This document shows, one piece after another, positions 5,783 through 28,357 of a stretch of 64,000 nucleotides of DNA. The DNA lies in IMG/VR virus record IMGVR_UViG_3300032289_001637, positions 1-64,000 of that record, one strand, 5' to 3'. The notes under the pieces were generated by a model, which worked only from the letters and a program-made list of their open reading frames with translations, had not been told where the DNA came from and searched no databases. Origin of the DNA: a virus. The position numbers and the translations under genes are program-made. Position 1 is the first letter of the stretch. The number at the start of each line of letters is the position of its first letter.

Positions 5783-5856
5783 GGGGTGGTAGCTCAGTTG
5801 GTTAGAGCCCTGAACTCATAATTCAGTAGTCGTCAGTTCGAGCCTGACCCACCCCA
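5783..5856 (+). tRNA. tRNA with CAT anticodon (probably Ile2/lysidine type, otherwise Met)
   Basis: Cloverleaf: GGGGTGG/CCACCCC acceptor, GCTC/GAGC D stem, CTGAA-CTCATAA-TTCAG, GTCAG-TTCGAGC-CTGAC. Confidence 0.9.
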
Positions 5857-5965
5857 CCCCACGGGGGCGCAATCTGATAATTTTAATAAATGATTACGAA
5901 CACCCTTATATAACCCCATTTTTTCAATATTTTAAAAATCAAGGAAGAGAGAGTATAATAGTATT

Positions 5966-7272: not shown

Positions 7273-7674
7273 TCAGGAATTGGCTCTTTTGGCAAGTAGG
7301 GAGTCAAAGTCTTTCTTCTTTGTTCCCCCGTCATATTCCCAGGCATAGCCTTCATTAATCATCTTTTCATTAAGGGAAGTGTCTTCATCATTAATAAATA
7401 GCCAGCCTAAAATACGACCATATTTTTCAGAACTGTCTGGCTTTTCTGTTTGAATAATAATGTCTTCTGCATTTTCAAGTAAATGCTTTAGGTATTCTTT
7501 TACTTCTAGACCAAGTGCTTTTTCTCTAAGATCAGTTGTTCTAGATTCAGGAGTATCAATACCCGCCAATCTTACTCTTTGAGTAAAAGATACGTTAAAT
7601 CCAAGATCAATGTCAACATCAATGGTATCCCCATCAACTATCTTTAATACTTTTTTTACACGGTATTCATACAT
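7273..7674 (-). CDS. Thermonuclease (SNase family)
   Basis: VDGDTI, RVRLAGIDTPE, KYGRILG motifs. Confidence 0.9.
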   Translation of the reverse strand: MYEYRVKKVLKIVDGDTIDVDIDLGFNVSFTQRVRLAGIDTPESRTTDLREKALGLEVKEYLKHLLENAEDIIIQTEKPDSSEKYGRILGWLFINDEDTSLNEKMINEGYAWEYDGGTKKKDFDSLLAKRANS

Positions 7675-7706
7675 AACTATTCTATTATATATGTATATTT
7701 CTAAAG

Positions 7707-7779
7707 TCCCCGATAAGAGATTCGAACTCCTGACCTGTAGGGTAGAAACCTATCGCTCTATCCACTGAGCTAATCGGGG
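7707..7779 (-). tRNA. tRNA-Arg(TCT)
   Basis: CCCCGAT/ATCGGGG acceptor, anticodon loop TTTCTAC, TTCGAAT T loop. Confidence 0.88.
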
Positions 7780-7840: not shown

Positions 7841-7844
7841 GCTG

Positions 7845-7917
7845 CTCCCCAACCTAGACTTGAACTAGGAACATTCAAATTAACAGTTTGACGCTCTGCC
7901 AATTGAGCTATTGGGGA
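7845..7917 (-). tRNA. tRNA-Asn(GTT)
   Basis: TCCCCAA/TTGGGGA acceptor, TCAAA-CTGTTAA-TTTGA, TTCAAGT T loop. Confidence 0.9.
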
Positions 7918-12755: not shown

Positions 12756-13520
12756 TTATAAATCTCTAGGAGGAATATTTCTATTTTCAACGGCAAGTAG
12801 CTGACCTCTATGCTCTGCTTTTATATCTTTTCTTACCCAAGTCCCACCATAAGTATCTTCAAATACTTCAACACCAACTCTTCTTTTTAATCTTTCAGCC
12901 ATTGATTGGAATGTTGGATCATCACTTAAATGAAGATATGCATTGTGATACCAGGGTAGGTCATAGAATGCAGGAGAATTAACTAAAAGCATAGCTGCAG
13001 TATTCCAATGCTCTTCAATTCTTGGATTATCACAAACAGCTTTTCCTCTTAGTCCATATGCTGGAACATCTGCACTAACAATTGGATGGTCTACTTCAAA
13101 TAACTTTTCAATAAGTTCTGCAGTTAAAACTGTATCTGAATCAACATACAATATTGCATCATAATAAATATAAAAAATTTCTATTGGTCTTTGTGCAAAC
13201 TCTCTAATTAAATTTCTACCAGTTTCAATCCTTATCAATCTATTTTCAGCAGTTACTTGACTTTTCATATCATTTATTGAGTATGTCCAGAAATCTCCAT
13301 TGACTTCCTTTAAACTATTTAAAACTCTTTCAAAAGGTTCTAGACCTCTGCTATCAAGTTCTAATGCAGTAAAGAATTTTGCATTCGGGAATTTTTCAAT
13401 TATTTGTTTTGAGTTTTCAAGCCATGACATTTCCTCACCCATGTCTGCTTTCCATCCTACAAGCGGTGTACCAATAACAAAGTGTTTGTTGTAATCTATC
13501 TCTTTAAACATTGTGAACAC
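12756..13520 (-). CDS. Putative GT-A fold glycosyltransferase
   Basis: GRNL..., ILYVDSD (DxD), SDD motifs. Confidence 0.6.
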   Translation of the reverse strand: MFTMFKEIDYNKHFVIGTPLVGWKADMGEEMSWLENSKQIIEKFPNAKFFTALELDSRGLEPFERVLNSLKEVNGDFWTYSINDMKSQVTAENRLIRIETGRNLIREFAQRPIEIFYIYYDAILYVDSDTVLTAELIEKLFEVDHPIVSADVPAYGLRGKAVCDNPRIEEHWNTAAMLLVNSPAFYDLPWYHNAYLHLSDDPTFQSMAERLKRRVGVEVFEDTYGGTWVRKDIKAEHRGQLLAVENRNIPPRDL

Positions 13521-13965
13521 TCCTTATGTATTCAATTATATCAGAGCAGTAGCCATGATAGTCTAAATATTTTATTTCTTCTATAGTTCTAAATAGTTCT
13601 GGAAGAACTGCAATTGTATTTGAATTTGCTTTTGCAACTCCTGGAAATGCCCAAACAAATCTTTTACTTGTTAAAGTATAATCATCTTGATTGTGAAAAA
13701 AACAATTCAAATCTTCATCAAGAGCATACTTCAAAGACTCTTTATCCTTGCAATGGACCCACAAGCTTTCCCTACATTCATCAATAAAGTTATCATCTAT
13801 TAAATACTGTGGCTTATCGTGACCTAAAAATATTTGTCCATCTTTGTGACGAATATCAATCTCTACATCAAAACCTTTATCTATGGCTTGATAAATATAA
13901 ACTGGACTATTTTCTAGTTCTAGTTTTTTTCCAGTTAAATTTCCACGATGAGATATGTATATCAT
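13504..13965 (-). CDS. GDPD/PI-PLC-like phosphodiesterase
   Basis: SHRGN, EN, DVEIDI, LGHD, WVHCK. Confidence 0.7.
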   Translation of the reverse strand: MIYISHRGNLTGKKLELENSPVYIYQAIDKGFDVEIDIRHKDGQIFLGHDKPQYLIDDNFIDECRESLWVHCKDKESLKYALDEDLNCFFHNQDDYTLTSKRFVWAFPGVAKANSNTIAVLPELFRTIEEIKYLDYHGYCSDIIEYIRSVHNV

Positions 13966-14564
13966 TCTGCTACCTTATTAAAATGAACATCTGCTTCTTT
14001 GCCTACATTGTCTGGAACTATTTTACACTCAAATCCTTTGTCTGTCAACCATTCACATATATCATTTACATTATTTTCAGTATTAACATATAGATCAACA
14101 GTATAAGCACCTTCACACTTTCCTTCTTTTACAATTGAAATTTTTTCTCCAAGGCTTTTTAAAACTCTAAAATCATTTCCCTGAGCATCAATCCATAAGT
14201 AATCAATTGATTCAATATTATTTTCATTAATAAATGAATCAAGCCTTACTGTTTCTACAGTAACCTTATGAGTAGTATTAAAGTCTGGTCTCCCTTTCCA
14301 TTTTTCATGTATGTCTGGAGCAAATTCATAAAGTGAAGAGCATCCCCAGTCTCCACCACCTGCTATATTGAATATTTTTTCTCCTTCTTCAACATCAACA
14401 GCTTTATCTATAAGATTAAAATTAGTATCATTCTTAAATCTATCTTTTAAATGTTCAACTAATTCTGGAGTTGGTTCAAAAGCCCATACATTATTATTTT
14501 TATCTTGAACAAATCTTTCTGTGTCATGACCATAGTTAGCTCCAACTTCAACAATAGTTTTCAT
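13962..14564 (-). CDS. FkbM family SAM methyltransferase
   Basis: EVGANYG, AFEP, IDYLWIDAQGND. Confidence 0.85.
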   Translation of the reverse strand: MKTIVEVGANYGHDTERFVQDKNNNVWAFEPTPELVEHLKDRFKNDTNFNLIDKAVDVEEGEKIFNIAGGGDWGCSSLYEFAPDIHEKWKGRPDFNTTHKVTVETVRLDSFINENNIESIDYLWIDAQGNDFRVLKSLGEKISIVKEGKCEGAYTVDLYVNTENNVNDICEWLTDKGFECKIVPDNVGKEADVHFNKVAE

Positions 14565-15943
14565 TATTTCTCCTTGTGATTTTCTAAAAAATAATTTAAA
14601 TCTTCTGGTGTTCCAATACCCCACATTTTGTCAATCATTTTTAGCCTAATCTTCTTACCATCTTTGATTGCTTCATTGAATACTGGACACACATAAAATT
14701 CATTATTTGTTCTAACATTATTTTCTATCATTTGATTTGCATACTTAACATAGTCTGAACCATGTTTCCAAAAATAAATTCCTACCGTTGCATTATCAGA
14801 GATTGGATTCTTTTCTGCAACTTCAGATACAAAACCATCTTCACCAATCTTAGCAAATGACCACTTAGGATGTGTTGCTTTGAAAGATAAAATTCCACCA
14901 TCTGAATTACTTGCAGTAAATTCGTAAAGTGCTTCATTAGAATCCCACTCAACATACTGATCTGAGTTAGCCATTAGAAGTGGCTTTTCGCTATCAATTA
15001 AATGCTCTGCAAGTAGTGTTGTACATGCTGCACCTTCAGTCATTCCATCAACAACAACTATGTCACAATCTGGTGCAATTAAATTTAGTAACTGTTTTAG
15101 GTTGTATTTTTCATAATGTTCTTTTTGTACTAAGAAAATATAGTGAGCATCAATATTAAGATTTTCTACAACTACCTGAATCATAGGCTTACCATTGACT
15201 TCAATTAGTGGCTTTGGAAATGTGTAGCCAGCTTGAGCAAACCTTGAACCTGCACCAGCCATTGGAATAAGAACATTCATCTCTTTATTTTTCCAAGGCA
15301 CTTGTCCAGTTCTCTCTTTCTGTTCAAATTTTTTAATAAAATCTATAAACATTGTATAACTTAGATCATAAGAGTCTTTAATTGGGTATAGGTTTGCTCC
15401 AGAATTTATAGCACCTTGCCTTCCAACATGTGAGTCTTCAACAATAACCGTATCTTTTGGAAATGCTCCAAGGCTTACCATGCATTTCCAGTACATTTCT
15501 GGATGTGGTTTTGGATGCCAGACATCTTCATTGCTAACTATAAAGTCAACCAGATGTAGGACATCTATTGAATGCAAAGATTTAATTATTGTTTCTCTAA
15601 TACTATTTGATGCTATAGCAATCTTCCAACCGTTTTGCTTTAAGTAAGTCATAATATTATTAGCGACAAGGTTTCTTGGCAAATCTTCTAATAGTCTAAA
15701 AGTAGCTTCTTGCTTATTTGCCCAAACCTCATCATGCTTATCTATTGGAAGACCTTTTTCTTGGGTAAGCATGTTAAGCTTTTTTCTTGTATTAAGACCA
15801 TCATATCTTGACAAGTGTTCTGAATAGGATATCTTAAAATCCTCTCCAACAATACCTAGAGCATTATTTAAAGCCTTATAGTGTAAATCTTTAGAGTCTA
15901 TTAGAACACCATCTAAATCAAATATAACTAATTTATTACTCAT
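14564..15943 (-). CDS. HAD phosphatase - nucleotidyltransferase (BcbE-like) fusion
   Basis: FDLDGVL, KPHP, EDS motifs, then IPMAGAGSRF, PKPLI, EKNPIS, NEFY. Confidence 0.85.
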   Translation of the reverse strand: MSNKLVIFDLDGVLIDSKDLHYKALNNALGIVGEDFKISYSEHLSRYDGLNTRKKLNMLTQEKGLPIDKHDEVWANKQEATFRLLEDLPRNLVANNIMTYLKQNGWKIAIASNSIRETIIKSLHSIDVLHLVDFIVSNEDVWHPKPHPEMYWKCMVSLGAFPKDTVIVEDSHVGRQGAINSGANLYPIKDSYDLSYTMFIDFIKKFEQKERTGQVPWKNKEMNVLIPMAGAGSRFAQAGYTFPKPLIEVNGKPMIQVVVENLNIDAHYIFLVQKEHYEKYNLKQLLNLIAPDCDIVVVDGMTEGAACTTLLAEHLIDSEKPLLMANSDQYVEWDSNEALYEFTASNSDGGILSFKATHPKWSFAKIGEDGFVSEVAEKNPISDNATVGIYFWKHGSDYVKYANQMIENNVRTNNEFYVCPVFNEAIKDGKKIRLKMIDKMWGIGTPEDLNYFLENHKEK

Positions 15944-16587
15944 CCTTGTGGACCTGCATGTCTATGCCATTTGTTATGTCTAACAATACTTTTTCCATTA
16001 CATTTCATAACATATTTATTTCTTACTCTGTAAGACCACTCAACATCTTCTTCTTCATTCCATACAAGACTTTCATCAAGTGGTTCTTCAATCATTACAT
16101 GACGCTTAACCATAAAGAATCCACCAGAAATATACATATATTGAGTTTGAGACCAATCGTTATAGTCTAAAGACCATGCTCTTCCATAACCAGGCTTATC
16201 CCAAAGAGACCAGTCCATTGGATTTCTTGCACCTGTAATTAAATATTGTGGGCAAGAGCAGATTTCCCAATCAGTTCCAAATTCAACAAAGTTTTTATAC
16301 CAATCTTTATCAAAGATATGGTAGTCATGCATTAAAACTATATTTTCATACTTAGCTTCTTTTACAAGAATATTCTTTTTTCTAGTAATCCATCTTTCTT
16401 TTACTGACTCATCAAAATTAATTTTTCTAATATCAACACCATCAATACTAGAACTATCTCCACCACCAACAAATAAAATTTCATACTCTGGGATATTAAG
16501 ATTACGAATGCTTTCTATGATCTCTTGAAGTCTCTGTTTATCTTCATAAACTGTTATAATTCCAAATGTCCATTGGATATCATTCAT
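15940..16587 (-). CDS. Glycosyltransferase family 2-like
   Basis: IVLMHDY, ISGGF, EEDVEW motifs. Confidence 0.7.
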   Translation of the reverse strand: MNDIQWTFGIITVYEDKQRLQEIIESIRNLNIPEYEILFVGGGDSSSIDGVDIRKINFDESVKERWITRKKNILVKEAKYENIVLMHDYHIFDKDWYKNFVEFGTDWEICSCPQYLITGARNPMDWSLWDKPGYGRAWSLDYNDWSQTQYMYISGGFFMVKRHVMIEEPLDESLVWNEEEDVEWSYRVRNKYVMKCNGKSIVRHNKWHRHAGPQG

Positions 16588-17515
16588 TTACAAAGCCTGT
16601 CGCTATTACAGTTACTAGAATACCATCCTCAAGATCTGTATCTAAAACTGTTCCAAATATGATGTCAGCATCTTCATGTGCTTTTTCTGAAACTAATGAG
16701 GCTATCATGCTTACCTCAGACATTTTTACATCTCCAGAAGATGCAATTGAAATCAAAACTCCAGTTGCACCATTTAAATCTACATCAAGAATAGGACTTG
16801 TAATTGCTTCATTACCTGCAATTGCAGCACGATTATCTCCAGATGCATAACCAATTCCCATAAATGCAGATCCTGCATCTTTCATAACTCTTTTAATATC
16901 TGCAAAGTCAATGTTAATTTGACCAGGAGTTGTTACTAAATCTGATACTGCTGCTATTGCTTTTAGTAAAATGTTATCGGATTCCTTAAAGGCATCTTCC
17001 ATTGATATATCTGAATCTAGCATAGAAATAAGATTTTGATTTGGAACAACAATTAAGGTGTCAACTTCCTTGCTAAAACTATTAATTCCCTCTAAGGCAT
17101 TTATCATACGCTTCTTGCCCTCAAACCCAAATGGCGTAGTTACAATGCCTACAGTTAAAGCTCCAGCCTTTTTAGCAGCCCCAGCCACTATTGGTGCAGA
17201 GCCAGTTCCAGTTCCTCCACCCATTCCAGCCGTTACAAAAACAACGTCAGCACCTGAAACTACTTCAGAAATTTCATGAATACTATCTTTTGCCGAAAGT
17301 CTTCCTATATTTGGATCTGCTCCAGCACCAAGACCGTTAGTTCTATCTCTTCCAATATCAACTTTAACATCTGCCAAACTTGGCATTAATGCTTGAACAT
17401 CAGTATTTATTGCAATAAACTCTACGCCAGATAGACCTGATTTTATCATTCCATCTACAGCGTTAACTCCTCCACCACCACAACCAATGACTCTTATATC
17501 AATTAAATTACTCAT
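16580..17515 (-). CDS. ftsZ: FtsZ (GTPase core only, no C-terminal linker or peptide)
   Basis: GCGGGGVNAV, NTD, GLGAGA, GMGGGTGTG, PFGFEG, INIDFAD, IIFG, VTVIATGF. Confidence 0.95.
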   Translation of the reverse strand: MSNLIDIRVIGCGGGGVNAVDGMIKSGLSGVEFIAINTDVQALMPSLADVKVDIGRDRTNGLGAGADPNIGRLSAKDSIHEISEVVSGADVVFVTAGMGGGTGTGSAPIVAGAAKKAGALTVGIVTTPFGFEGKKRMINALEGINSFSKEVDTLIVVPNQNLISMLDSDISMEDAFKESDNILLKAIAAVSDLVTTPGQINIDFADIKRVMKDAGSAFMGIGYASGDNRAAIAGNEAITSPILDVDLNGATGVLISIASSGDVKMSEVSMIASLVSEKAHEDADIIFGTVLDTDLEDGILVTVIATGFVNE

Positions 17516-17535
17516 ACCTAATTATACCTTAAAAA

Positions 17536-20267: not shown

Positions 20268-20522
20268 TTATAGCTGTCTTTCATCATTATACTTTATATC
20301 TAGAATTGGGTCAAGTGTCACATTCGCACCTAAAGATTCTAAGATATTTTTTACTCTCGTCATATACTGTATACAACGAAGCCTTTCGTTGTCATTTAAA
20401 TGTCTCCAATGGCTTTCATAAAATTGGATAGCAAGAAAATGATTATAGTCTACAATTGCTATTTCAAAATCTTTTGGAGGCTTTACGCTTCTAATAGCAT
20501 GTCTCATGTTATCTGTATACAT
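20268..20522 (-). CDS. Hypothetical protein
   Basis: 84-aa ORF. Confidence 0.7.
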   Translation of the reverse strand: MYTDNMRHAIRSVKPPKDFEIAIVDYNHFLAIQFYESHWRHLNDNERLRCIQYMTRVKNILESLGANVTLDPILDIKYNDERQL

Positions 20523-20803
20523 TAGTCACTCTCCATTGTAATTGCAGACCAGATATCAAACCAATTAGTCTTTTCTTTATGACTATTAAATTCTTTAGAT
20601 ATCTTTCCGCCCTCCAAATAAACGCCACCCCAAACACCCCATTCAGCATTACTAACTCCATATGCTAAACATTGTCTTTGTACTGGACACCTTATACACA
20701 AAAGATCTACCTTTTTTGAAACTTCTGGATTTTCTTCATATTGATCAAAGAAAAGATTTGTATCCATATTAAGGCATAGAGCTTTTTCATCAAACTTGTA
20801 CAT
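20522..20803 (-). CDS. whiB: WhiB family Fe-S transcription factor
   Basis: C...FF...CxxCPV...C...GVWGG. Confidence 0.9.
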   Translation of the reverse strand: MYKFDEKALCLNMDTNLFFDQYEENPEVSKKVDLLCIRCPVQRQCLAYGVSNAEWGVWGGVYLEGGKISKEFNSHKEKTNWFDIWSAITMESD

Positions 20804-22053: not shown

Positions 22054-23370
22054 TTATTTATAAAAAGAAAACGGTGAGTCTTTCCAAGTATCATCTGATT
22101 TAGATGCTCTTGCATTTTGAATTGCCTTCCACTTTTGTGTTGACCAAGCAAAGCCAGAATCTCCACCCCAAAGTAGCCATGCTATTTTTCCATTTGATGG
22201 ACGTTCTGCATTATCCCAGTCCTTGCCTTTTTTATCTACTTCATGTCTAGAAAAGAAAGAGTACATTCTTGCAACAGTTTCAGGACTTAAGTCTCTACCA
22301 TTAACTAAATCACGAGCACGAGCAACTCCTACTGCAGTTCCACCTCTACCAAACTTTGCTCTAAGTTCAAGACCTCTTCTAGCATTGTTAGCCATAGACT
22401 CGGTTGGTTTTAGATCAATATCAGAAACGTCTCTCTTTTCTACATCGTATCCTTTTCTTTTAGATTTTGGCTTCCATTCTTCTGGAAGCAAATCTGTTCT
22501 ACCAAGTGCTTCTGCTCTTCTTATAATGTGATTACGAGCCCTTGCATAATTTGATGCACGACCAACTGCCTGGACTGCATTACTTAGATCTGCTGCAGTA
22601 ACAATTGGAAAAGATCCATCTGGCAAAGCCATATCTCTACGAGCTAACATCTGTCTTTCTTTATCAGAATAATCTTTTTTACCCATTGAATGTTGTGGGC
22701 AATTTTTGTCATTGCAATCTTCCATTGAATGAGGTCTTGTATTTGGAACATCATCATTGCCAATAACGCCATCTTCTGATTTTGAAGTTGATACTCTTAA
22801 AGTGTCTACTCTGTGACCAACCAAAGTTTCTGTTGGCTTTCCATCTCTATAAATTCTAATAAGTGCTGCTGGATTATCTGGGGTTCCTGTAATTGTAAAA
22901 TCAGAATTAGGAACATTGATAGAACCATTTCTAACAACTCTTACAACTTTTCCTCTTGCAGTACCACCGCTAGAGTTCCAAGAAACCATTTGACCAACTC
23001 TAACTGAATCAGCTTTTGACATTTCAGGAATCATTTCCATAAATTCTTCTCCAGAATTTTTCATGTCAGCATTTACATAACCATCTGGAATTACTGCAAG
23101 TCTGCAAGCACCCTCTTCTTCAATTTGCTGTGAGATAATTGCACAAGAAACTGCAGATTTATGAAGTGCACAGTTTCCACACTTAACACCAATAGAAGCA
23201 TTTTGATTTGTAGAACCATCTTCATAACCAATCCAAATGCCTTCTGACTGATCTAGTGGTCCAAGTTCTTCTGTTAATTTTAATAATGAATCTGCAAAGG
23301 CTTTTTCATCTTCTGAAAGCATGTTATAAAGGGGTTCGCCTTCCCATTCTGCTGACTTAATAATATCCAT
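22054..23370 (-). CDS. Multidomain phage protein (HiPIP-like Cys domain, Tudor/SH3-like domain, two further domains)
   Basis: CGNC..C..G.C; VGQMVSW..G.ARGKV; ALPDGSFPI; RMYSFFSRH..WLLWGG. Confidence 0.7.
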   Translation of the reverse strand: MDIIKSAEWEGEPLYNMLSEDEKAFADSLLKLTEELGPLDQSEGIWIGYEDGSTNQNASIGVKCGNCALHKSAVSCAIISQQIEEEGACRLAVIPDGYVNADMKNSGEEFMEMIPEMSKADSVRVGQMVSWNSSGGTARGKVVRVVRNGSINVPNSDFTITGTPDNPAALIRIYRDGKPTETLVGHRVDTLRVSTSKSEDGVIGNDDVPNTRPHSMEDCNDKNCPQHSMGKKDYSDKERQMLARRDMALPDGSFPIVTAADLSNAVQAVGRASNYARARNHIIRRAEALGRTDLLPEEWKPKSKRKGYDVEKRDVSDIDLKPTESMANNARRGLELRAKFGRGGTAVGVARARDLVNGRDLSPETVARMYSFFSRHEVDKKGKDWDNAERPSNGKIAWLLWGGDSGFAWSTQKWKAIQNARASKSDDTWKDSPFSFYK

Positions 23371-23385
23371 AACTACTATTATATC

Positions 23386-23745
23386 TTATCTTTGCTCATA
23401 ATGTGCTAACAATGTTTCAAGAAAAAATCTTTCATCATCAGTAAAATTATTTATATTTTCTTTTATTGAGTCTACTTGTTCTGGAGTTACTCCAACAATT
23501 GTCTGCCCCTCAGTAAATACTATATCTATTACATCTTGCATCCAAAGACTTGATGCTAATTCTCCAACAGCTTCATAGTGTGCATAATATAATTCTGGAT
23601 AAAGCTCTTTACACTTTGAAGTAACCTTGTATGTAAACTGATCTGATATAGAATCATACCCCATAATTTCCATAGCACCTATTTCAATTAGATACTCAAT
23701 CATTTCAGATAACTCTTGATTATCAATATCCTCATTATCTTCCAT
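23386..23745 (-). CDS. Acidic hypothetical protein
   Basis: 119-aa ORF. Confidence 0.7.
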   Translation of the reverse strand: MEDNEDIDNQELSEMIEYLIEIGAMEIMGYDSISDQFTYKVTSKCKELYPELYYAHYEAVGELASSLWMQDVIDIVFTEGQTIVGVTPEQVDSIKENINNFTDDERFFLETLLAHYEQR

Positions 23746-24766
23746 GGGGTAATGACTCCTTTACAGATAGTGGTGACACTCTTGTATACATAGAATCTTT
23801 ATACAGTTCATGAAGAAAGTCAACTCCAGAGTAAGAGCAGCCACTTCCAAGCCCACCTTTAATGTCTTTAATTACATCCTTTACAGATCCTTTATAAGCA
23901 ATCTTTGTAGATATTCCTTCTGCAACTGCAATGTCTTTATCTTTGTTCGCTTCTTTACTAGCCATTCCTCTAAAAGATTTAAATTTCTTATCCCCCTCAA
24001 AGTATAGATCTCCAGGAGACTCTTCAGTACCTGCCAACATTGATCCTAGCATTACAGCATCTGCTCCTGCAGCAAAAGCTTTTACCATATCTCCAGTACT
24101 TCTAATTCCACCATCTGCTATGATTCCAGCATTTAAGTTAAACTTATCTTTTGCTTCTCGGATGTTTATAATTGAAGATAGTGTTGGAATACCATGTCCA
24201 GATACTATTCTTGTAGTGCACATGCTACCCCCACCAATGCCTACTCTAATAGAATCTGCACCTGCAATATCTAGGGCTATAAATCCCTCTATGGTAGAAA
24301 CATTTCCAGCCATAATATGAACAGAATTTCCTACAATATTTTTAAGCCTAGCAACTGCATCAATAGCCATCTTACTATGACCATTTGCAGTGTCAACTAA
24401 TAGCATAGAGGCTCCTGCCAAAATAAGCTTTTCTACATGCTCCTGAATAAATGTAGAAGATAGTGCTGCACCAACAGGCAGTTTTAGATCGCTGTGATTA
24501 TAAACTTCTTCAACCATTTTTATTTGATTTTTTGCAGACATGAATCTATGAATAATTCCAATTCCACCAGACTCTGCCATAGCAATAGCCATATCTCTTT
24601 CGCATACTGTATCCATTGGGGAAGCAATTACGGGTAAGTTTAGCAATAAGCTTCCACCAATAGGCATAGCAGTATCTACAGAACTTCTACTAACAACTTC
24701 TGAATATTGTGGAACCATTAATATATCATCAAAGCAAATATAGTTATTTGCTAAATATTCTTTCAT
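23735..24766 (-). CDS. guaB: IMP dehydrogenase / GMP reductase family (no CBS domains)
   Basis: SPMDTV, GIIHRF, GIGGGSMCTTR, IADGGI, FRGMAS, AEG. Confidence 0.88.
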   Translation of the reverse strand: MKEYLANNYICFDDILMVPQYSEVVSRSSVDTAMPIGGSLLLNLPVIASPMDTVCERDMAIAMAESGGIGIIHRFMSAKNQIKMVEEVYNHSDLKLPVGAALSSTFIQEHVEKLILAGASMLLVDTANGHSKMAIDAVARLKNIVGNSVHIMAGNVSTIEGFIALDIAGADSIRVGIGGGSMCTTRIVSGHGIPTLSSIINIREAKDKFNLNAGIIADGGIRSTGDMVKAFAAGADAVMLGSMLAGTEESPGDLYFEGDKKFKSFRGMASKEANKDKDIAVAEGISTKIAYKGSVKDVIKDIKGGLGSGCSYSGVDFLHELYKDSMYTRVSPLSVKESLPHGR

Positions 24767-24769
24767 AGA

Positions 24770-25855
24770 CTACTTCCATTTCTTAATCGTATTAATTATA
24801 TGCATTTTTTCTTTATCTGTCAACCACCATCCAACTGGTATATTTAACTGATTTTCATTAAAAAAGTCTAATCCAGGAAGTGGTCCTTCTTTAAATTCCA
24901 AGGTACAAGTATTATGATCATTTCTATGATGAGTAGGACTTGAAACAATTCTATTATCTAGCAAATATTTCATAAAGTTTTCTCTGTTAACATTATTTAA
25001 AATTATTGGGAATATCCAATATGAGCAAGTTTCATCAAATGGTAGTACTGTGATGTGGTCTAATCCAGAAAGTTCATCGCAGAATAGTTTTGCATTCTTT
25101 CTGCTTTCTTTAACTGCATTATTAGCATATTCAATGTTAGCAAGTCCGATAGTCGCACAAACATCGTTCATATGATACTTAAATCCAGCTCTTTTTATAT
25201 CCTGTTTATATCTAAAACTTTCATTACTAGTTCTATCTAATCCAAACCATCTAAGATTTTTTGCTTCACGTTCTGTTTCTACTGGACAAATAATTGCTCC
25301 ACCATCAGAAGTTGTTAAAAACTTAATAGCCTGAAAGCTATAGCAGATATAATCTCCTCTTTCAACATCTTTTGTTTCAAAAGTATCCCAACAATGTGCT
25401 GCATCTTCGATAACTGGAATTCCAAAAGACTTTAATTTTTTGTAGTCTGGAATTCTACCAGCCCAGTTAACTGCAATAATTACTTTTGTTTTTTTTGTAA
25501 TTAATTTTTCAACGCTATCTGGATCAATAAGACCTGTTAAAGAATCTACATCTGCCCATCTAATTTTTGCACCACGATGTATAGCACCTATCTGTGTTGC
25601 AAAGCATGTCATTGGTGTTGATATAATTTCGTCACCTGGATTAACATTGCATAGCTCTACTGCTAAGTTTATTGCACTAGTTCCAGAATTTACTGTGACT
25701 GGCTTAGTCTTAGCAGTATTCAAAGAACGCCATAGAGCATCTTCAAAGAGTTCAACCCTATGACCCTGTGCAACATATCCAGAAGATAATACTGGATCTA
25801 ACATTTTTGTAGCATCTGGAGACATTGTTACTTGAAATAGTTCAATGTTTTTCAT
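24770..25855 (-). CDS. DegT/DnrJ/EryC1/StrS sugar aminotransferase
   Basis: NSGTSA, IEDAAH, SFQAIK (PLP Lys), DGG. Confidence 0.9.
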   Translation of the reverse strand: MKNIELFQVTMSPDATKMLDPVLSSGYVAQGHRVELFEDALWRSLNTAKTKPVTVNSGTSAINLAVELCNVNPGDEIISTPMTCFATQIGAIHRGAKIRWADVDSLTGLIDPDSVEKLITKKTKVIIAVNWAGRIPDYKKLKSFGIPVIEDAAHCWDTFETKDVERGDYICYSFQAIKFLTTSDGGAIICPVETEREAKNLRWFGLDRTSNESFRYKQDIKRAGFKYHMNDVCATIGLANIEYANNAVKESRKNAKLFCDELSGLDHITVLPFDETCSYWIFPIILNNVNRENFMKYLLDNRIVSSPTHHRNDHNTCTLEFKEGPLPGLDFFNENQLNIPVGWWLTDKEKMHIINTIKKWK

Positions 25856-26616
25856 TACGCCTTCCTAAATTTAGCTTTTGCATTAAATAACCATTTGTTT
25901 ATTTTAATCTCACCATTACTATTTGTTTTTGTATAAGTTCTATCTGTAATATTATAGTAGGTTATTCCAGACTGTTTAATATCTGGGGTACTATATACAA
26001 CCTTGAACATATCTTTATCTAAGTTAAACTTATTACATCCTTCTTCAACAAGTTTTTCCATTCTTAAAAACTTTTCAGATTCTGTTTTATTTATCCAGGG
26101 CAAACCAGTTTTATGAGTAATATTCACTGCTGGATTACCACCATATACAGAATTTTCTTCCATGTTTTTTATAACAACAGACCCAAGCATAGCCATTGAT
26201 TTATCTTTTGCAATTATTGGGGAAACAAAACATTCTCCAACAAACCAAACATCATTTCCAATTATTAACTCTGACTCTTTTTCATACAGGCATCCTTCTG
26301 TAACATCCCCATGTCTGATATGAGAGTACAGTCCAGATCCTATTCCTACTCCAAGAAAGTCTCCTGCCCAAAGCTTTCCAGTTCCATCAAGAACCACCCT
26401 CTCTCCAACCCAAGTAGCTTCCCCTAGCCTGACTACTCCACTAGCATTAATAAAACAATTTCTATTAATCTTTGAGTAATCTCCGATAAAAAGATCTCCA
26501 CCCCCAAGGATTTTTACACCCTCACCAATTTCAACATTGTCTCCAATTTCAAATGAATTAAATTCTCCAATGAATTCAACCGAACTATGAATTTTTGTAT
26601 TGTATCCTATTTTCAT
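25855..26616 (-). CDS. Hexapeptide-repeat acyltransferase
   Basis: IGDNVEIGEG, IGNDVW, GGNPA. Confidence 0.8.
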   Translation of the reverse strand: MKIGYNTKIHSSVEFIGEFNSFEIGDNVEIGEGVKILGGGDLFIGDYSKINRNCFINASGVVRLGEATWVGERVVLDGTGKLWAGDFLGVGIGSGLYSHIRHGDVTEGCLYEKESELIIGNDVWFVGECFVSPIIAKDKSMAMLGSVVIKNMEENSVYGGNPAVNITHKTGLPWINKTESEKFLRMEKLVEEGCNKFNLDKDMFKVVYSTPDIKQSGITYYNITDRTYTKTNSNGEIKINKWLFNAKAKFRKA

Positions 26617-27344
26617 AATTCATCTCCTGAACTGTATGGATCTGGTCTGTTTCCAAGTTGCTGTGGATAAATACCTTTATATTGAGCAACACATTCATTT
26701 GCATGACACTTTCCAAAAGCTGCCTCTAGCTGCTGATACAAGTTTGCGTCTAAGGCAACAGTTTGTGGAGATGGAAATTTTATTCCTGCCTCTTTAAAAT
26801 TATTAAGTCTCCAAGAAACCTGGCTTGCGTCTACAGTGTTAGCTGGAGAAATAGAACCTTCTCTATGATTTAACATATTATTAAAATTATCTTCTAATGT
26901 TTCAAAACTAATAAAATCATTTGGATTATAGATAGAAACTTTACCATAAGAGTAAATTGAATTTGGATTATTGTTATAGAAATTAACAAGATTCTTTAAG
27001 TAATCTTTATACAAAGCATCATCATCACAAAGTATAAAAGCTATGTCAGCATCAGACTCTTGCATAGCTTCATTTAACATCTGCCCATGCTTACTTCCAC
27101 CCTGATTTTTCTTTTGTTCTGGAGAGTCTCCTGTTGCATAAAACTTAATTTTTTTTAAATATTTTTTAGAAAAAATTTCTTCAACTATTGGCTTTCCTAA
27201 ATAGTTTATTCCATCATCACAAAAAGCTACCTCCCAATTATGGTAAGACTGCCTTTTTATTGATTCTAAGGCAGTCTTAACCATATTAGGTCGTTCAAAA
27301 TATGCAAGCAATATTAAAACTTTCATATCTTTTTTTTTAGGCAT
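26613..27344 (-). CDS. Glycosyltransferase family 2
   Basis: ALESIKRQSY, CDDG, LCDDD. Confidence 0.8.
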   Translation of the reverse strand: MPKKKDMKVLILLAYFERPNMVKTALESIKRQSYHNWEVAFCDDGINYLGKPIVEEIFSKKYLKKIKFYATGDSPEQKKNQGGSKHGQMLNEAMQESDADIAFILCDDDALYKDYLKNLVNFYNNNPNSIYSYGKVSIYNPNDFISFETLEDNFNNMLNHREGSISPANTVDASQVSWRLNNFKEAGIKFPSPQTVALDANLYQQLEAAFGKCHANECVAQYKGIYPQQLGNRPDPYSSGDEL

Positions 27345-28357
27345 TACAGAGAAAGCCATTCTTCGTGCTTTAAAGTCCACTCTACAGTCTTCTGAATAGA
27401 TTCTTCAAGAGGTATTGGAAGCTTCCAACCAGTCTCAGAGATCTTCTTTCCATCCAGGGCATACCTTAAGTCATGACCTGGACGAGAAGAGTGGAAGTCT
27501 TCTAATTCATACCTCAATGGCTTCCCAACTGCTTTTGCAATCATCTGAGCCATTTCCAAGTTGTCTACTTCTCTTTCACCGACAATGTGAAATTTTGCTG
27601 GTACATTAGATTCTCCATATGCTGGGAAGTGTTGCTTAAGAACATGTAGAAGTCCATCTGCTTGATTACGAGCATGTAGATAAAAACGAGTTCCAATTTC
27701 TCCTTCTGGAGATGCATGTATCTTAACAGTTTCCCCATTAAGAACTTTTTTAATTACCATTGGCATAAACTTTTCTGTGTCTTGAGTTTCTCCAATAATA
27801 TTCATGGTATTAGTAATTGCAAGAGGAACTCCATAAGTCCTCCAGTATGAGAATGCAATGCTTTCTTGTGCTGCCTTTGAAGCGGAGTATGGATTGCTTG
27901 GGAAGAATTGGTCTACCCACTCTTTATGAGCATACCCCTTTGGAGCTGGACCATAAACTTCATCAGTTGAAATATGCAAGAACTTTTCTGGCTTTGCAAC
28001 TCTTGCCCAGTCAAGTAAATTACAAATTAAAGATACATTGTTTAATATAAAAGGAGTTGGCTCTTCTATGCTTCTATCAACATGACTTTCACTAGCTACA
28101 TTTATAACATAGTCAATTTTTCCAAACTGATGTGAAGTTACTGGAGAAATTGGTGCAGTCAAGTCTGTCTTAATAACTTTAATACGACTATAAGCATCTG
28201 GCAAGTCATCACATGCCACGTTTATTCTATCTGTCAAACCTTTATGTGTAAATGTTGTTGGACATACCACAAACCAGTCTGTATTAACTAAAATATGTCT
28301 AAGCACATGGCTACCAACAAATCCACTAGCACCTGTTAAAAGAACTCTTTTACTCAT
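27344..28357 (-). CDS. rfbB: dTDP-glucose 4,6-dehydratase (RmlB-like)
   Basis: TGASGFVG, SESHVDRSI, STDEVYG, PYSASK, RPGHDLRY. Confidence 0.88.
   Translation of the reverse strand: MSKRVLLTGASGFVGSHVLRHILVNTDWFVVCPTTFTHKGLTDRINVACDDLPDAYSRIKVIKTDLTAPISPVTSHQFGKIDYVINVASESHVDRSIEEPTPFILNNVSLICNLLDWARVAKPEKFLHISTDEVYGPAPKGYAHKEWVDQFFPSNPYSASKAAQESIAFSYWRTYGVPLAITNTMNIIGETQDTEKFMPMVIKKVLNGETVKIHASPEGEIGTRFYLHARNQADGLLHVLKQHFPAYGESNVPAKFHIVGEREVDNLEMAQMIAKAVGKPLRYELEDFHSSRPGHDLRYALDGKKISETGWKLPIPLEESIQKTVEWTLKHEEWLSL

What the first reader, a model, noticed from the sequence alone, without database searches (positions are those of the whole stretch)
16580..17515. Phage-encoded FtsZ truncated exactly after the GTPase core
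Seen: a 311-aa protein resembling bacterial (actinobacterial-like) FtsZ rather than divergent PhuZ/TubZ. The GGGTGTG loop and T7 loop (INIDFAD) are intact, and it ends at VTVIATGF-VNE with no linker and no conserved C-terminal peptide. It has its own leaderless promoter, phage-like AT content and phage genes on both sides. Established: the C-terminal peptide tethers FtsZ to the membrane through SepF/FtsA, and tail-less FtsZ can polymerise but not anchor. Inference: a dominant-negative co-polymerising division inhibitor that enlarges the infected cell, or a captured cytoskeleton for organising phage assembly. Phage IMPDH could help supply GTP.
Basis: partly seen in the sequence, partly recalled or inferred. 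Interest (0 to 1): 0.88.

Follow-up and report, generated by a model that had tools for sequence, protein, structure and literature searches.

The report
Tail-less FtsZ gene in actinobacterial phages
A 94-kb uncultured phage of actinobacteria, like nearly all its relatives, carries a well-preserved copy of the bacterial division protein FtsZ without the tail that ties it to the membrane, most likely to jam host cell division during infection.

Summary
Window 16580..17515 (minus strand) encodes a 311-aa FtsZ core. It scores 368 bits against the FtsZ equivalog (cut-off 295) and aligns without gaps to M. tuberculosis FtsZ (57% identity, TM 0.95-0.97). The GTP-binding loop and the T7 catalytic loop are intact. 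The protein ends 5 residues after the last beta-strand, and the next gene overlaps its stop by 8 nt, so no tail is hidden.

It is not an assembly artefact or a decaying gene:
- More than 120 protein clusters and about 60 IMG/VR contigs carry it.
- Every copy is 307-314 aa, across subclades down to 63% identity.
- Median dN/dS is 0.15.
- 36 of 37 loci anchored on the SSB gene with enough downstream sequence have it.

The genome is a phage of Actinomycetota. It has a WhiB gene, and its TerL and DnaE are closest to those of Streptomyces and Gordonia phages. The nearest cellular FtsZs are actinobacterial (53-59%), and all of those keep the DLDVPDFLK tail.

A consensus TATAAT sits 5-6 nt before the start codon and is conserved in the main clade, which fits a leaderless promoter.

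Function is inferred. The most likely role is co-assembly with, or capping of, host FtsZ to block division. A phage cytoskeleton is the main rival.

I found no paper describing this. The scan had already noted the same kind of gene in another genome (e1-5354895).

The parts
16580..17515 (-). ftsZ core CDS, 311 aa: GTPase domain plus FtsZ C-terminal subdomain, with no linker and no conserved C-terminal peptide
   Evidence: AlphaFold2 pLDDT 90.1, last strand at residues 299-306. Foldseek match to 1rlu, TM 0.95/0.97.
17521..17526 (-). Consensus -10 hexamer TATAAT (within GGTATAAT), 5 nt before the ATG; candidate leaderless promoter
   Evidence: (A/G)GGTATAAT followed by 5-6 nt and then ATG/GTG is kept in all 21 main-clade loci shown (74.8% identity or more, the window included), while the flanks vary. 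No Shine-Dalgarno sequence lies at a usable distance. Not verified with RNA data.
15940..16587 (-). GT2-family glycosyltransferase whose start overlaps the ftsZ stop by 8 nt (probably translationally coupled)
   Evidence: PF00535, 3.1e-05.
12756..15943 (-). Rest of the glycan-modification cassette behind ftsZ: HAD plus nucleotidyltransferase fusion, FkbM methyltransferase and two unassigned ORFs. The cassette varies between relatives but is always of this type.
20522..20803 (-). WhiB-like regulator, a marker of an actinobacterial host and possibly a second handle on host division
   Evidence: PF02467, 49.7 bits, over the cut-off. Role of phage WhiB in septation as stated in PMC10202952.

Best explanation
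The gene encodes a complete, catalytically competent FtsZ polymerisation core. It lacks the disordered linker and the C-terminal peptide through which cellular FtsZ binds its membrane anchor (SepF in Actinobacteria). An ancestor of this lineage of low-GC actinophages acquired it once, and it has been kept as a near-core gene ever since.

Shown:
- identity, fold and intact GTP-binding and T7 loops;
- truncation conserved under purifying selection;
- a conserved consensus -10 box directly before the start codon;
- no tail-like peptide anywhere else in the genome.

Inferred mechanism: host RNA polymerase transcribes the gene as a leaderless mRNA. The protein then joins host FtsZ filaments through the conserved longitudinal faces. 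The resulting mixed filaments have too few SepF-binding tails, or, because of clade-specific changes on the bottom face, are capped. A membrane-attached Z-ring cannot form or constrict. The infected cell stops dividing but keeps growing, so the phage keeps the whole cell's resources and no daughter escapes. This is the benefit shown experimentally for the small FtsZ inhibitors of T7 and T5.
For: Identity: TIGR00065 at 367.8 bits; gapless alignment to Mtb FtsZ residues 8-312, E 2e-104; model pLDDT 90.1 and TM 0.95-0.97 to 1rlu/6ym9.

Catalytic residues: N201/D203/D206 correspond to E. coli N207/D209/D212 and are conserved. 135 positions are conserved and identical between the phage clade and Actinomycetota; only 13 are conserved but different. 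This is the pattern expected if the polymer interfaces remain compatible.

No tail: all 76 cellular homologues with an ORF complete in the locus (2 more run off their contigs) carry a linker plus a C-terminal tail peptide, DLDVPDFLK-like in Actinomycetota. The phage copies stop 2-5 residues after ATGF. No CTP-like motif occurs in any ORF of the 94-kb genome.

Selection: median dN/dS 0.148, maximum 0.27, over 890 pairs. Subclades at 63-65% identity are also truncated. 36 of 37 SSB-anchored loci with enough room carry ftsZ. The 120 best clusters are all 307-314 aa, although lengths up to 545 aa were searched.

Expression signal: conserved GGTATAAT 5-6 nt before the start codon.

Host: WhiB; TerL 55% and DnaE 51% identical to Streptomyces phages.

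Precedents:
- A. tumefaciens FtsZ1 lacks CTL and CTP, co-polymerises with full-length FtsZ and needs it for localisation (10.1101/412759).
- SepF is the only actinobacterial division protein known to bind the FtsZ tail (10.1101/732925).
- Division inhibition gives T5 and T7 a competitive advantage (PMC10714956).
Against: The cellular precedent cuts both ways: deleting A. tumefaciens FtsZ1 has no division phenotype, so tail-less FtsZ is not toxic by default.

A poison that works by dilution needs expression comparable to host FtsZ. An intact T7 loop is not what a simple capper needs.

The phage protein is only 54-58% identical to the FtsZ of the candidate hosts (Planktophila), so co-assembly is not guaranteed.

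The exact host genus is unknown.
Confidence: 0.5

Rival explanations
1. An autonomous phage cytoskeleton. The tail-less FtsZ forms its own cytoplasmic, treadmilling filaments that position phage DNA, capsids or assembly sites. This would be functionally analogous to PhuZ/TubZ but derived from canonical FtsZ.
For: Both polymerisation faces and the full GTPase machinery are under strong purifying selection, which is more than a mere blocker needs. The phage clade sits on a long stem branch of about 1 substitution per site and is monophyletic, so it could have become orthogonal to host FtsZ. Eight of the 13 clade-specific substitutions fall in residues 242-271, on or near the bottom longitudinal face.
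Against: No adaptor, centromere-binding or anchoring partner is conserved next to the gene: the upstream neighbours differ between subclades. Known phage tubulins use C-terminal tails for filament contacts or partners, and this protein has none. The 94-kb genome is far smaller than the jumbo phages in which PhuZ spindles are known (my recollection, not tested).
Confidence: 0.2
2. A decoy or sponge. The core mimics host FtsZ to soak up host factors that bind the globular domain. These could be regulators, proteases, kinases, or defence systems that monitor FtsZ, and filament function would not be needed.
For: Host immunity can use FtsZ as a co-sensor of a phage protein (CapRel, Gp0.4 and FtsZ; PMC13423816, abstract seen). 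The clade-specific changes map beside E. coli F268, a position where substitutions give resistance to Hdi, Gp0.4, MinCD and SulA (PMC10714956).
Against: A pure decoy would not need the catalytic T7 residues and the nucleotide loops to stay invariant. No such system is known in the presumed hosts.
Confidence: 0.1
3. The gene's function is tied to the glycan cassette it heads. For example, filaments might organise phage enzymes that modify the cell envelope or virion sugars.
For: In the window and the five comparison loci with a Pfam call on their downstream genes, ftsZ is directly followed, often with overlapping stop and start, by a variable set of glycosyltransferase, FkbM methyltransferase or nucleotidyltransferase genes. 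In the L159-type loci the two downstream ORFs had no Pfam match.
Against: The cassette content changes while ftsZ stays constant, as expected if ftsZ simply borders a variable accessory island. No enzyme of the cassette is known to bind FtsZ.
Confidence: 0.06
4. A non-functional remnant, host contamination or an assembly chimera.
For: None beyond the fact that this is a metagenome-derived record.
Against: More than 120 independent clusters and about 60 viral contigs have the same architecture. dN/dS is 0.15. Codon composition matches the phage. Synteny with phage genes holds in 36 of 37 loci.
Confidence: 0.02

Closest known systems
Cellular FtsZ of Actinomycetota (e.g. M. tuberculosis FtsZ; PDB 1RLU, 6YM9, 5ZUE)
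   Same: Same family and fold. 57% identity with a gapless alignment over 305 residues (phage residue n corresponds to Mtb n+4). Same nucleotide-binding and T7 loops. The phage protein is essentially the natural equivalent of the 1-312/315 crystallisation constructs.
   Different: No linker and no DLDVPDFLK peptide. Encoded by a phage. It forms its own long-branch clade outside the sampled actinobacterial families. 13 positions are conserved but different, clustered at residues 242-271.
Naturally truncated FtsZ paralogues of Alphaproteobacteria (A. tumefaciens FtsZ1, Rhizobium meliloti truncated FtsZ, Magnetospirillum truncated FtsZ)
   Same: A complete GTPase core without CTL and CTP, coexisting in the cell with a full-length FtsZ. 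FtsZ1 co-polymerises with, and depends on, the full-length protein (10.1101/412759).
   Different: Those are chromosomal paralogues of the same organism and are dispensable or have niche roles. This one is viral, of actinobacterial affinity, and meets a xxxxx FtsZ only during infection.
Small phage-encoded FtsZ inhibitors (lambda Kil, T7 Gp0.4, T5 Hdi)
   Same: Probably the same goal: stop host division so that no daughter cell escapes, which gives a competitive advantage (PMC10714956).
   Different: Those are short two-helix peptides that bind FtsZ. Here the presumed inhibitor is a truncated copy of the target itself.
Phage tubulins PhuZ and TubZ
   Same: Phage-encoded members of the tubulin/FtsZ superfamily.
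   Different: Very distant in sequence: PHROG PhuZ 27.7 bits against FtsZ equivalog 367.8 bits. PhuZ and TubZ rely on C-terminal tails, and this protein has none.

Membership tests
FtsZ (TIGR00065; Pfam PF00091 + PF12327) | Score above the curated equivalog and gathering cut-offs | tested here: met
   TIGR00065 367.8 bits against 295.2; PF00091 153.3 against 33; PF12327 100.8 against 27.
FtsZ (TIGR00065; Pfam PF00091 + PF12327) | Tubulin signature loop GGGTG(S/T)G and T7 synergy loop N-x-D-x-x-D | tested here: met
   GGGTGTG at residues 99-105. N201/D203/D206 align with E. coli N207/D209/D212.
FtsZ (TIGR00065; Pfam PF00091 + PF12327) | Two-subdomain FtsZ fold | tested here: met
   AlphaFold2 pLDDT 90.1; Foldseek 1rlu_A TM 0.95/0.97, rmsd 1.1.
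FtsZ (TIGR00065; Pfam PF00091 + PF12327) | Disordered linker plus conserved C-terminal peptide that binds membrane anchors (FtsA, ZipA, SepF) | tested here: not met
   The protein ends 5 residues after the last strand. All phage homologues do the same. The cellular homologues have the peptide. No such motif occurs elsewhere in the genome.
FtsZ (TIGR00065; Pfam PF00091 + PF12327) | GTP-dependent polymerisation and Z-ring function in cytokinesis | not testable with these tools
   Needs biochemistry and cell imaging.
Tail-less FtsZ paralogues (A. tumefaciens FtsZ1 type) | Full GTPase core, with CTL and CTP absent | tested here: met
Tail-less FtsZ paralogues (A. tumefaciens FtsZ1 type) | Common descent with the alphaproteobacterial truncated paralogues | tested here: not met
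   The best cellular relatives are Actinomycetota. The phage clade is monophyletic, and the tree holding it together with Actinomycetota is not rejected and has the higher likelihood. No truncated alphaproteobacterial paralogue was included in the tree, so exclusion of that origin is indirect.
Tail-less FtsZ paralogues (A. tumefaciens FtsZ1 type) | Co-polymerises with the full-length FtsZ of the cell | not testable with these tools
   The complex prediction gave no verdict (listed under Tried and rejected only).
PhuZ / TubZ phage tubulins | Sequence membership in the PhuZ/TubZ families | tested here: not met
   phrog_4733 only 27.7 bits, E 2.7e-06, against the FtsZ equivalog at 367.8 bits.
PhuZ / TubZ phage tubulins | C-terminal tail used for filament contacts or adaptor binding; partner genes (TubR/tubC, phage nucleus shell) | tested here: inconclusive
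   No tail is present and no neighbour is conserved across subclades. Partner families were not searched for explicitly.
Small phage FtsZ inhibitors (Kil, Gp0.4, Hdi) | Short helical peptide that binds FtsZ | tested here: not met
   This is a 311-aa protein with the FtsZ fold.

The most novel reading that the evidence does not exclude
Canonical FtsZ has been domesticated by a widespread lineage of actinophages into a phage-owned filament system. One form would be a cytoplasmic cytoskeleton that organises replication or assembly in very small host cells, a further independent origin of a phage cytoskeleton after PhuZ and TubZ. The other would be a substoichiometric end-capper whose altered bottom face (the positions matching E. 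coli A266, G267, L270 and L272) poisons growing host filaments.
Probability: 0.2. Interest if true: 0.85.

Novelty: new variant of a known kind. Interest (0 to 1): 0.66.

Why it matters
Known phage ways of stopping host division use small peptides that bind FtsZ. A phage that carries a tail-less copy of the target itself would be a different and simple principle: interference by subunit mimicry.

It is also a natural experiment on what the FtsZ tail is for. The phage protein matches the truncated constructs that structural biologists make.

The gene is near-universal in an apparently abundant group of uncultured phages of actinobacteria. It could therefore affect cell size, burst size and carbon flow in those communities.

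It is directly testable with standard tools in Corynebacterium or M. smegmatis. It also pairs with a phage WhiB gene 3 kb away. Phage WhiB proteins are reported to inhibit septation (PMC10202952), so two phage genes may converge on host division.

Tried and rejected
1. Complex prediction of the Planktophila FtsZ core (L106) with the phage FtsZ and GTP returned no verdict. It is not used as evidence either way.

I therefore have no read-level check, no expression data and no sample metadata.

3. tblastn against GenBank phages gave only hits below 60% identity. Several are in very short or very large records or in non-phage-named records, and some are annotated as cellular ftsZ, so I read them as likely host or contaminant sequence. 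Megablast of 10 kb found nothing. No cultured phage relative with this gene was found, and none of the 27 hit records is a Streptomyces or Gordonia phage, the groups closest by TerL and DnaE.

4. The free 'quick' trees placed the phage clade at the backbone or next to the long Patescibacteria branch, with a long-branch warning. The constrained search holding phage and Actinomycetota together had a log-likelihood 11.7 higher and p-AU 0.835. I therefore reject the Patescibacteria placement, but I do not claim a specific donor lineage.

5. I looked for a separately encoded tail or tail mimic by motif search over all ORFs of the genome. None was found.

6. I looked for a conserved adjacent partner gene. 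The three small upstream ORFs are conserved only in the main clade. In the 63-65% clade, ftsZ instead follows an SNase-like gene.

7. Literature searches for phage-encoded, viral or phage FtsZ, and for ftsZ in freshwater actinophage papers, found nothing relevant. Phage G has a divergent FtsZ/tubulin-like GTPase (CetZ-like), which is a different thing.

8. I checked short cellular representatives for a tail-less cellular ancestor. The ones examined have short tails or are no closer than canonical FtsZ.

Full report
OBSERVATION

The ORF at 16580..17515 on the minus strand is 311 aa. It carries GMGGGTGTG at residues 97-105 and INIDFAD at 200-206, and it ends VTVIATGF-VNE-stop.
- Pfam: Tubulin/FtsZ GTPase domain (1.2e-44) plus FtsZ_C (5.2e-29).
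- NCBIfam: FtsZ equivalog TIGR00065, 367.8 bits against a cut-off of 295.2.
- PHROGs: the PhuZ family scores only 27.7 bits.

The best solved relatives are M. tuberculosis FtsZ structures (E about 2e-104). The alignment is gapless, with phage residues 4-308 matching Mtb residues 8-312. An AlphaFold2 model built on 26 sequences has mean pLDDT 90.1. Its last strand spans residues 299-306 and only five residues follow it. Foldseek gives TM 0.95-0.97 to 1rlu and 6ym9.

In a mapping against E. coli K-12 FtsZ, the catalytic N207/D209/D212 correspond to phage N201/D203/D206, all conserved.

NO HIDDEN TAIL

The next gene is a GT2 glycosyltransferase at 15940..16587. It starts 8 nt before the end of the ftsZ stop, and its Pfam match begins at residue 10. 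Relatives end with TGA, TAA or TAG and have at least four different downstream genes. Frameshift, read-through and chimeric assembly are therefore excluded as explanations. A motif search of all ORFs in the 94-kb genome finds no FtsZ-tail-like peptide elsewhere.

THE GENOME

The window is the first 64 kb of a 94,158-bp IMG/VR virus record, estimated 87% complete. It encodes:
- TerL, a DnaE-type polymerase, a DnaB helicase, a primase, a UvsX/RecA-like recombinase, SSB and a tail protein;
- a WhiB-family protein at 20522..20803 (49.7 bits, over the cut-off). This family is reported to be exclusive to Actinobacteriota and is used as an actinophage marker (PMC10202952).

TerL is 55% identical and DnaE 51% identical to those of roughly 130-kb Streptomyces phages, with Gordonia phages also prominent. 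None of the 27 records hit by the FtsZ query in the phage collection is a Streptomyces or Gordonia phage. The host phylum is thus well supported, but the genus is not. I could not read sample metadata.

DISTRIBUTION AND SELECTION

In the 5.8-billion-protein search, the 120 best clusters (85-100% identity) are all 307-314 aa, although lengths up to 545 aa were admitted. IMG/VR yields about 60 contigs. They include subclades at 75% and at 63-65% identity, and every one stops 2-5 residues after ATGF.

Nei-Gojobori dN/dS over 890 pairs has a median of 0.148 and a maximum of 0.27.

As an independent check I anchored on the SSB gene. Of 40 loci, 36 have ftsZ 2.1-5.1 kb downstream. Three of the other four lack enough sequence, and one more distant relative has none within 4.9 kb. 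The gene is therefore near-core in this lineage.

Its GC3 (0.167) is as low as that of the other phage genes, which indicates long residence in the phage.

ORIGIN

The best cellular matches are Actinomycetota at 53-59% identity. Planktophila and Rhodoluna are at about 54%. Of the 78 cellular ORFs examined, the 76 that are complete in the locus all have a linker and a C-terminal tail peptide, DLDVPDFLK-like in Actinomycetota. Two more run off their contigs.

The phage sequences form one clade (SH-aLRT 97-100) on a stem of about one substitution per site, outside the sampled class Actinomycetes. The free quick tree joined them to a long Patescibacteria branch, with a long-branch warning. The tree that holds phage and Actinomycetota together is 11.7 log-likelihood units better and is not rejected (p-AU 0.835).

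I conclude a single old acquisition, most likely from an actinobacterium, with no identifiable donor.

EXPRESSION SIGNAL

Directly upstream lies GGTATAAT, then 5 nt, then ATG. In all 21 main-clade loci inspected (the window included), (A/G)GGTATAAT followed by 5-6 nt and ATG or GTG is conserved while the surrounding sequence varies. No Shine-Dalgarno sequence sits at a usable distance. About seven other genes in the genome show TATAAT 5-7 nt before their start.

In the 63-65% clade the gene has no such box and follows an SNase-like gene.

WHAT DIFFERS FROM CELLULAR FtsZ

Against 56 actinobacterial sequences, 135 positions are conserved and identical and 13 are conserved but different. Eight of the 13 lie at residues 242-271, in the S8-H10 region. 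Positions 259, 260, 263 and 265 map to E. coli A266, G267, L270 and L272, flanking F268.
- Substitutions at F268 give resistance to T5 Hdi, T7 Gp0.4, MinCD and SulA (PMC10714956).
- From my own recollection, not tested here, L272 lies on the bottom longitudinal face, and bottom-face mutants act as filament cappers.

This makes a capping variant of the interference model worth testing.

MECHANISM

Established knowledge:
- Most FtsZ partners bind the C-terminal peptide.
- In Actinobacteria, SepF is the only division protein known to bind it (10.1101/732925).
- A natural tail-less FtsZ (A. tumefaciens FtsZ1) co-polymerises with full-length FtsZ and depends on it for localisation (10.1101/412759).
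- Phage inhibition of FtsZ gives a competitive advantage by preventing daughter-cell escape (PMC10714956).

Inference: the phage protein enters or caps host filaments and deprives them of membrane attachment, which blocks division. I give this about 0.5. An autonomous phage cytoskeleton gets about 0.2, a decoy for core-binding host factors about 0.1, a role tied to the glycan cassette about 0.06, and an artefact or remnant about 0.02.

Against the leading model: deletion of FtsZ1 has no phenotype in Agrobacterium, so tail-less FtsZ is not toxic by default. There is also only 54-58% identity to candidate host FtsZ.

COMPARISON AND NOVELTY

The protein is a member of the FtsZ family by every sequence and fold criterion, except that it lacks the linker and tail. 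It works most like the truncated FtsZ paralogues of Alphaproteobacteria, but it is not related to them by descent as far as tested. Its likely purpose matches Kil, Gp0.4 and Hdi, by a different means.

Full-text searches found no paper describing a phage-encoded canonical FtsZ, truncated or not. JGI annotates many copies simply as 'cell division protein FtsZ'.

An earlier finding of this scan on another genome (e1-5354895) reached the same reading. I reached mine independently before seeing it. This report adds the promoter conservation, the SSB-anchored prevalence, the AU test and the bottom-face cluster.

THE IMPDH REMARK

The gene at 23735..24766 belongs to the IMPDH/GMP-reductase family (PF00478, 8e-101). 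It is 343 aa and matches the IMPDH model in two stretches spanning that model's middle part, so it appears to lack the insert. It is below every equivalog cut-off (IMPDH 281 bits, GMP reductase 211). A link to GTP supply is possible but unsupported.

Noticed in passing
window 12756-16587 (-); also L146, L147, L153, L159, L162: ftsZ always heads a glycan-modification cassette (GT2, FkbM methyltransferase, HAD plus nucleotidyltransferase). Its gene content changes between relatives while ftsZ stays constant. A second sugar cluster lies at 24770-28357: an aminotransferase, an acetyltransferase, a glycosyltransferase and a dTDP-glucose 4,6-dehydratase-like gene.
   Followed up: partly
window 5966(+), 17515(-), 23370(-), 31413(-), 40342(-); genome 75476(-), 85345(-): Perfect TATAAT hexamers lie 5-7 nt before the start codons of at least seven genes. 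This suggests the phage makes wide use of leaderless transcripts, as is common in Actinobacteria.
   Followed up: partly
window 23735-24766 (-): A 343-aa IMPDH/GMP-reductase-family protein that matches the IMPDH model in two stretches, so it appears to lack the middle insert. It is below all curated equivalog cut-offs, so its direction in guanine nucleotide metabolism is unclear.
   Followed up: partly
window 20522-20803 (-): A WhiB-like regulator 3 kb upstream of ftsZ, conserved at 72-92% in relatives. Phage WhiB proteins are reported to inhibit septation, so two phage genes may target host division.
   Followed up: partly
window 7273-7674 (-): A staphylococcal-nuclease-like gene (PF00565). 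In the 63-65% ftsZ subclade its homologue sits directly upstream of ftsZ, which shows rearrangement of this region between subclades.
   Followed up: no
window 5783-5858 (+), 7706-7779 (-), 7844-7917 (-): Three phage tRNA genes: Met-CAT, Arg-TCT and Asn-GTT.
   Followed up: no
window 22054-23370 (-): A 438-aa protein with an Hva1_TUDOR domain and its own TATAAT box before the start codon. Function unknown.
   Followed up: no
L198 (IMGVR_UViG_3300046779_001273): A more distant relative (SSB 73% identical) shows no ftsZ within 4.9 kb downstream of SSB. This may be a natural ftsZ-less comparator.
   Followed up: no
P0121 (Closterium sp., 840 aa): An algal protein with two tandem FtsZ cores, each about 45% identical to the phage protein. 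It topped the representative search only because the two domain scores are summed.
   Followed up: partly
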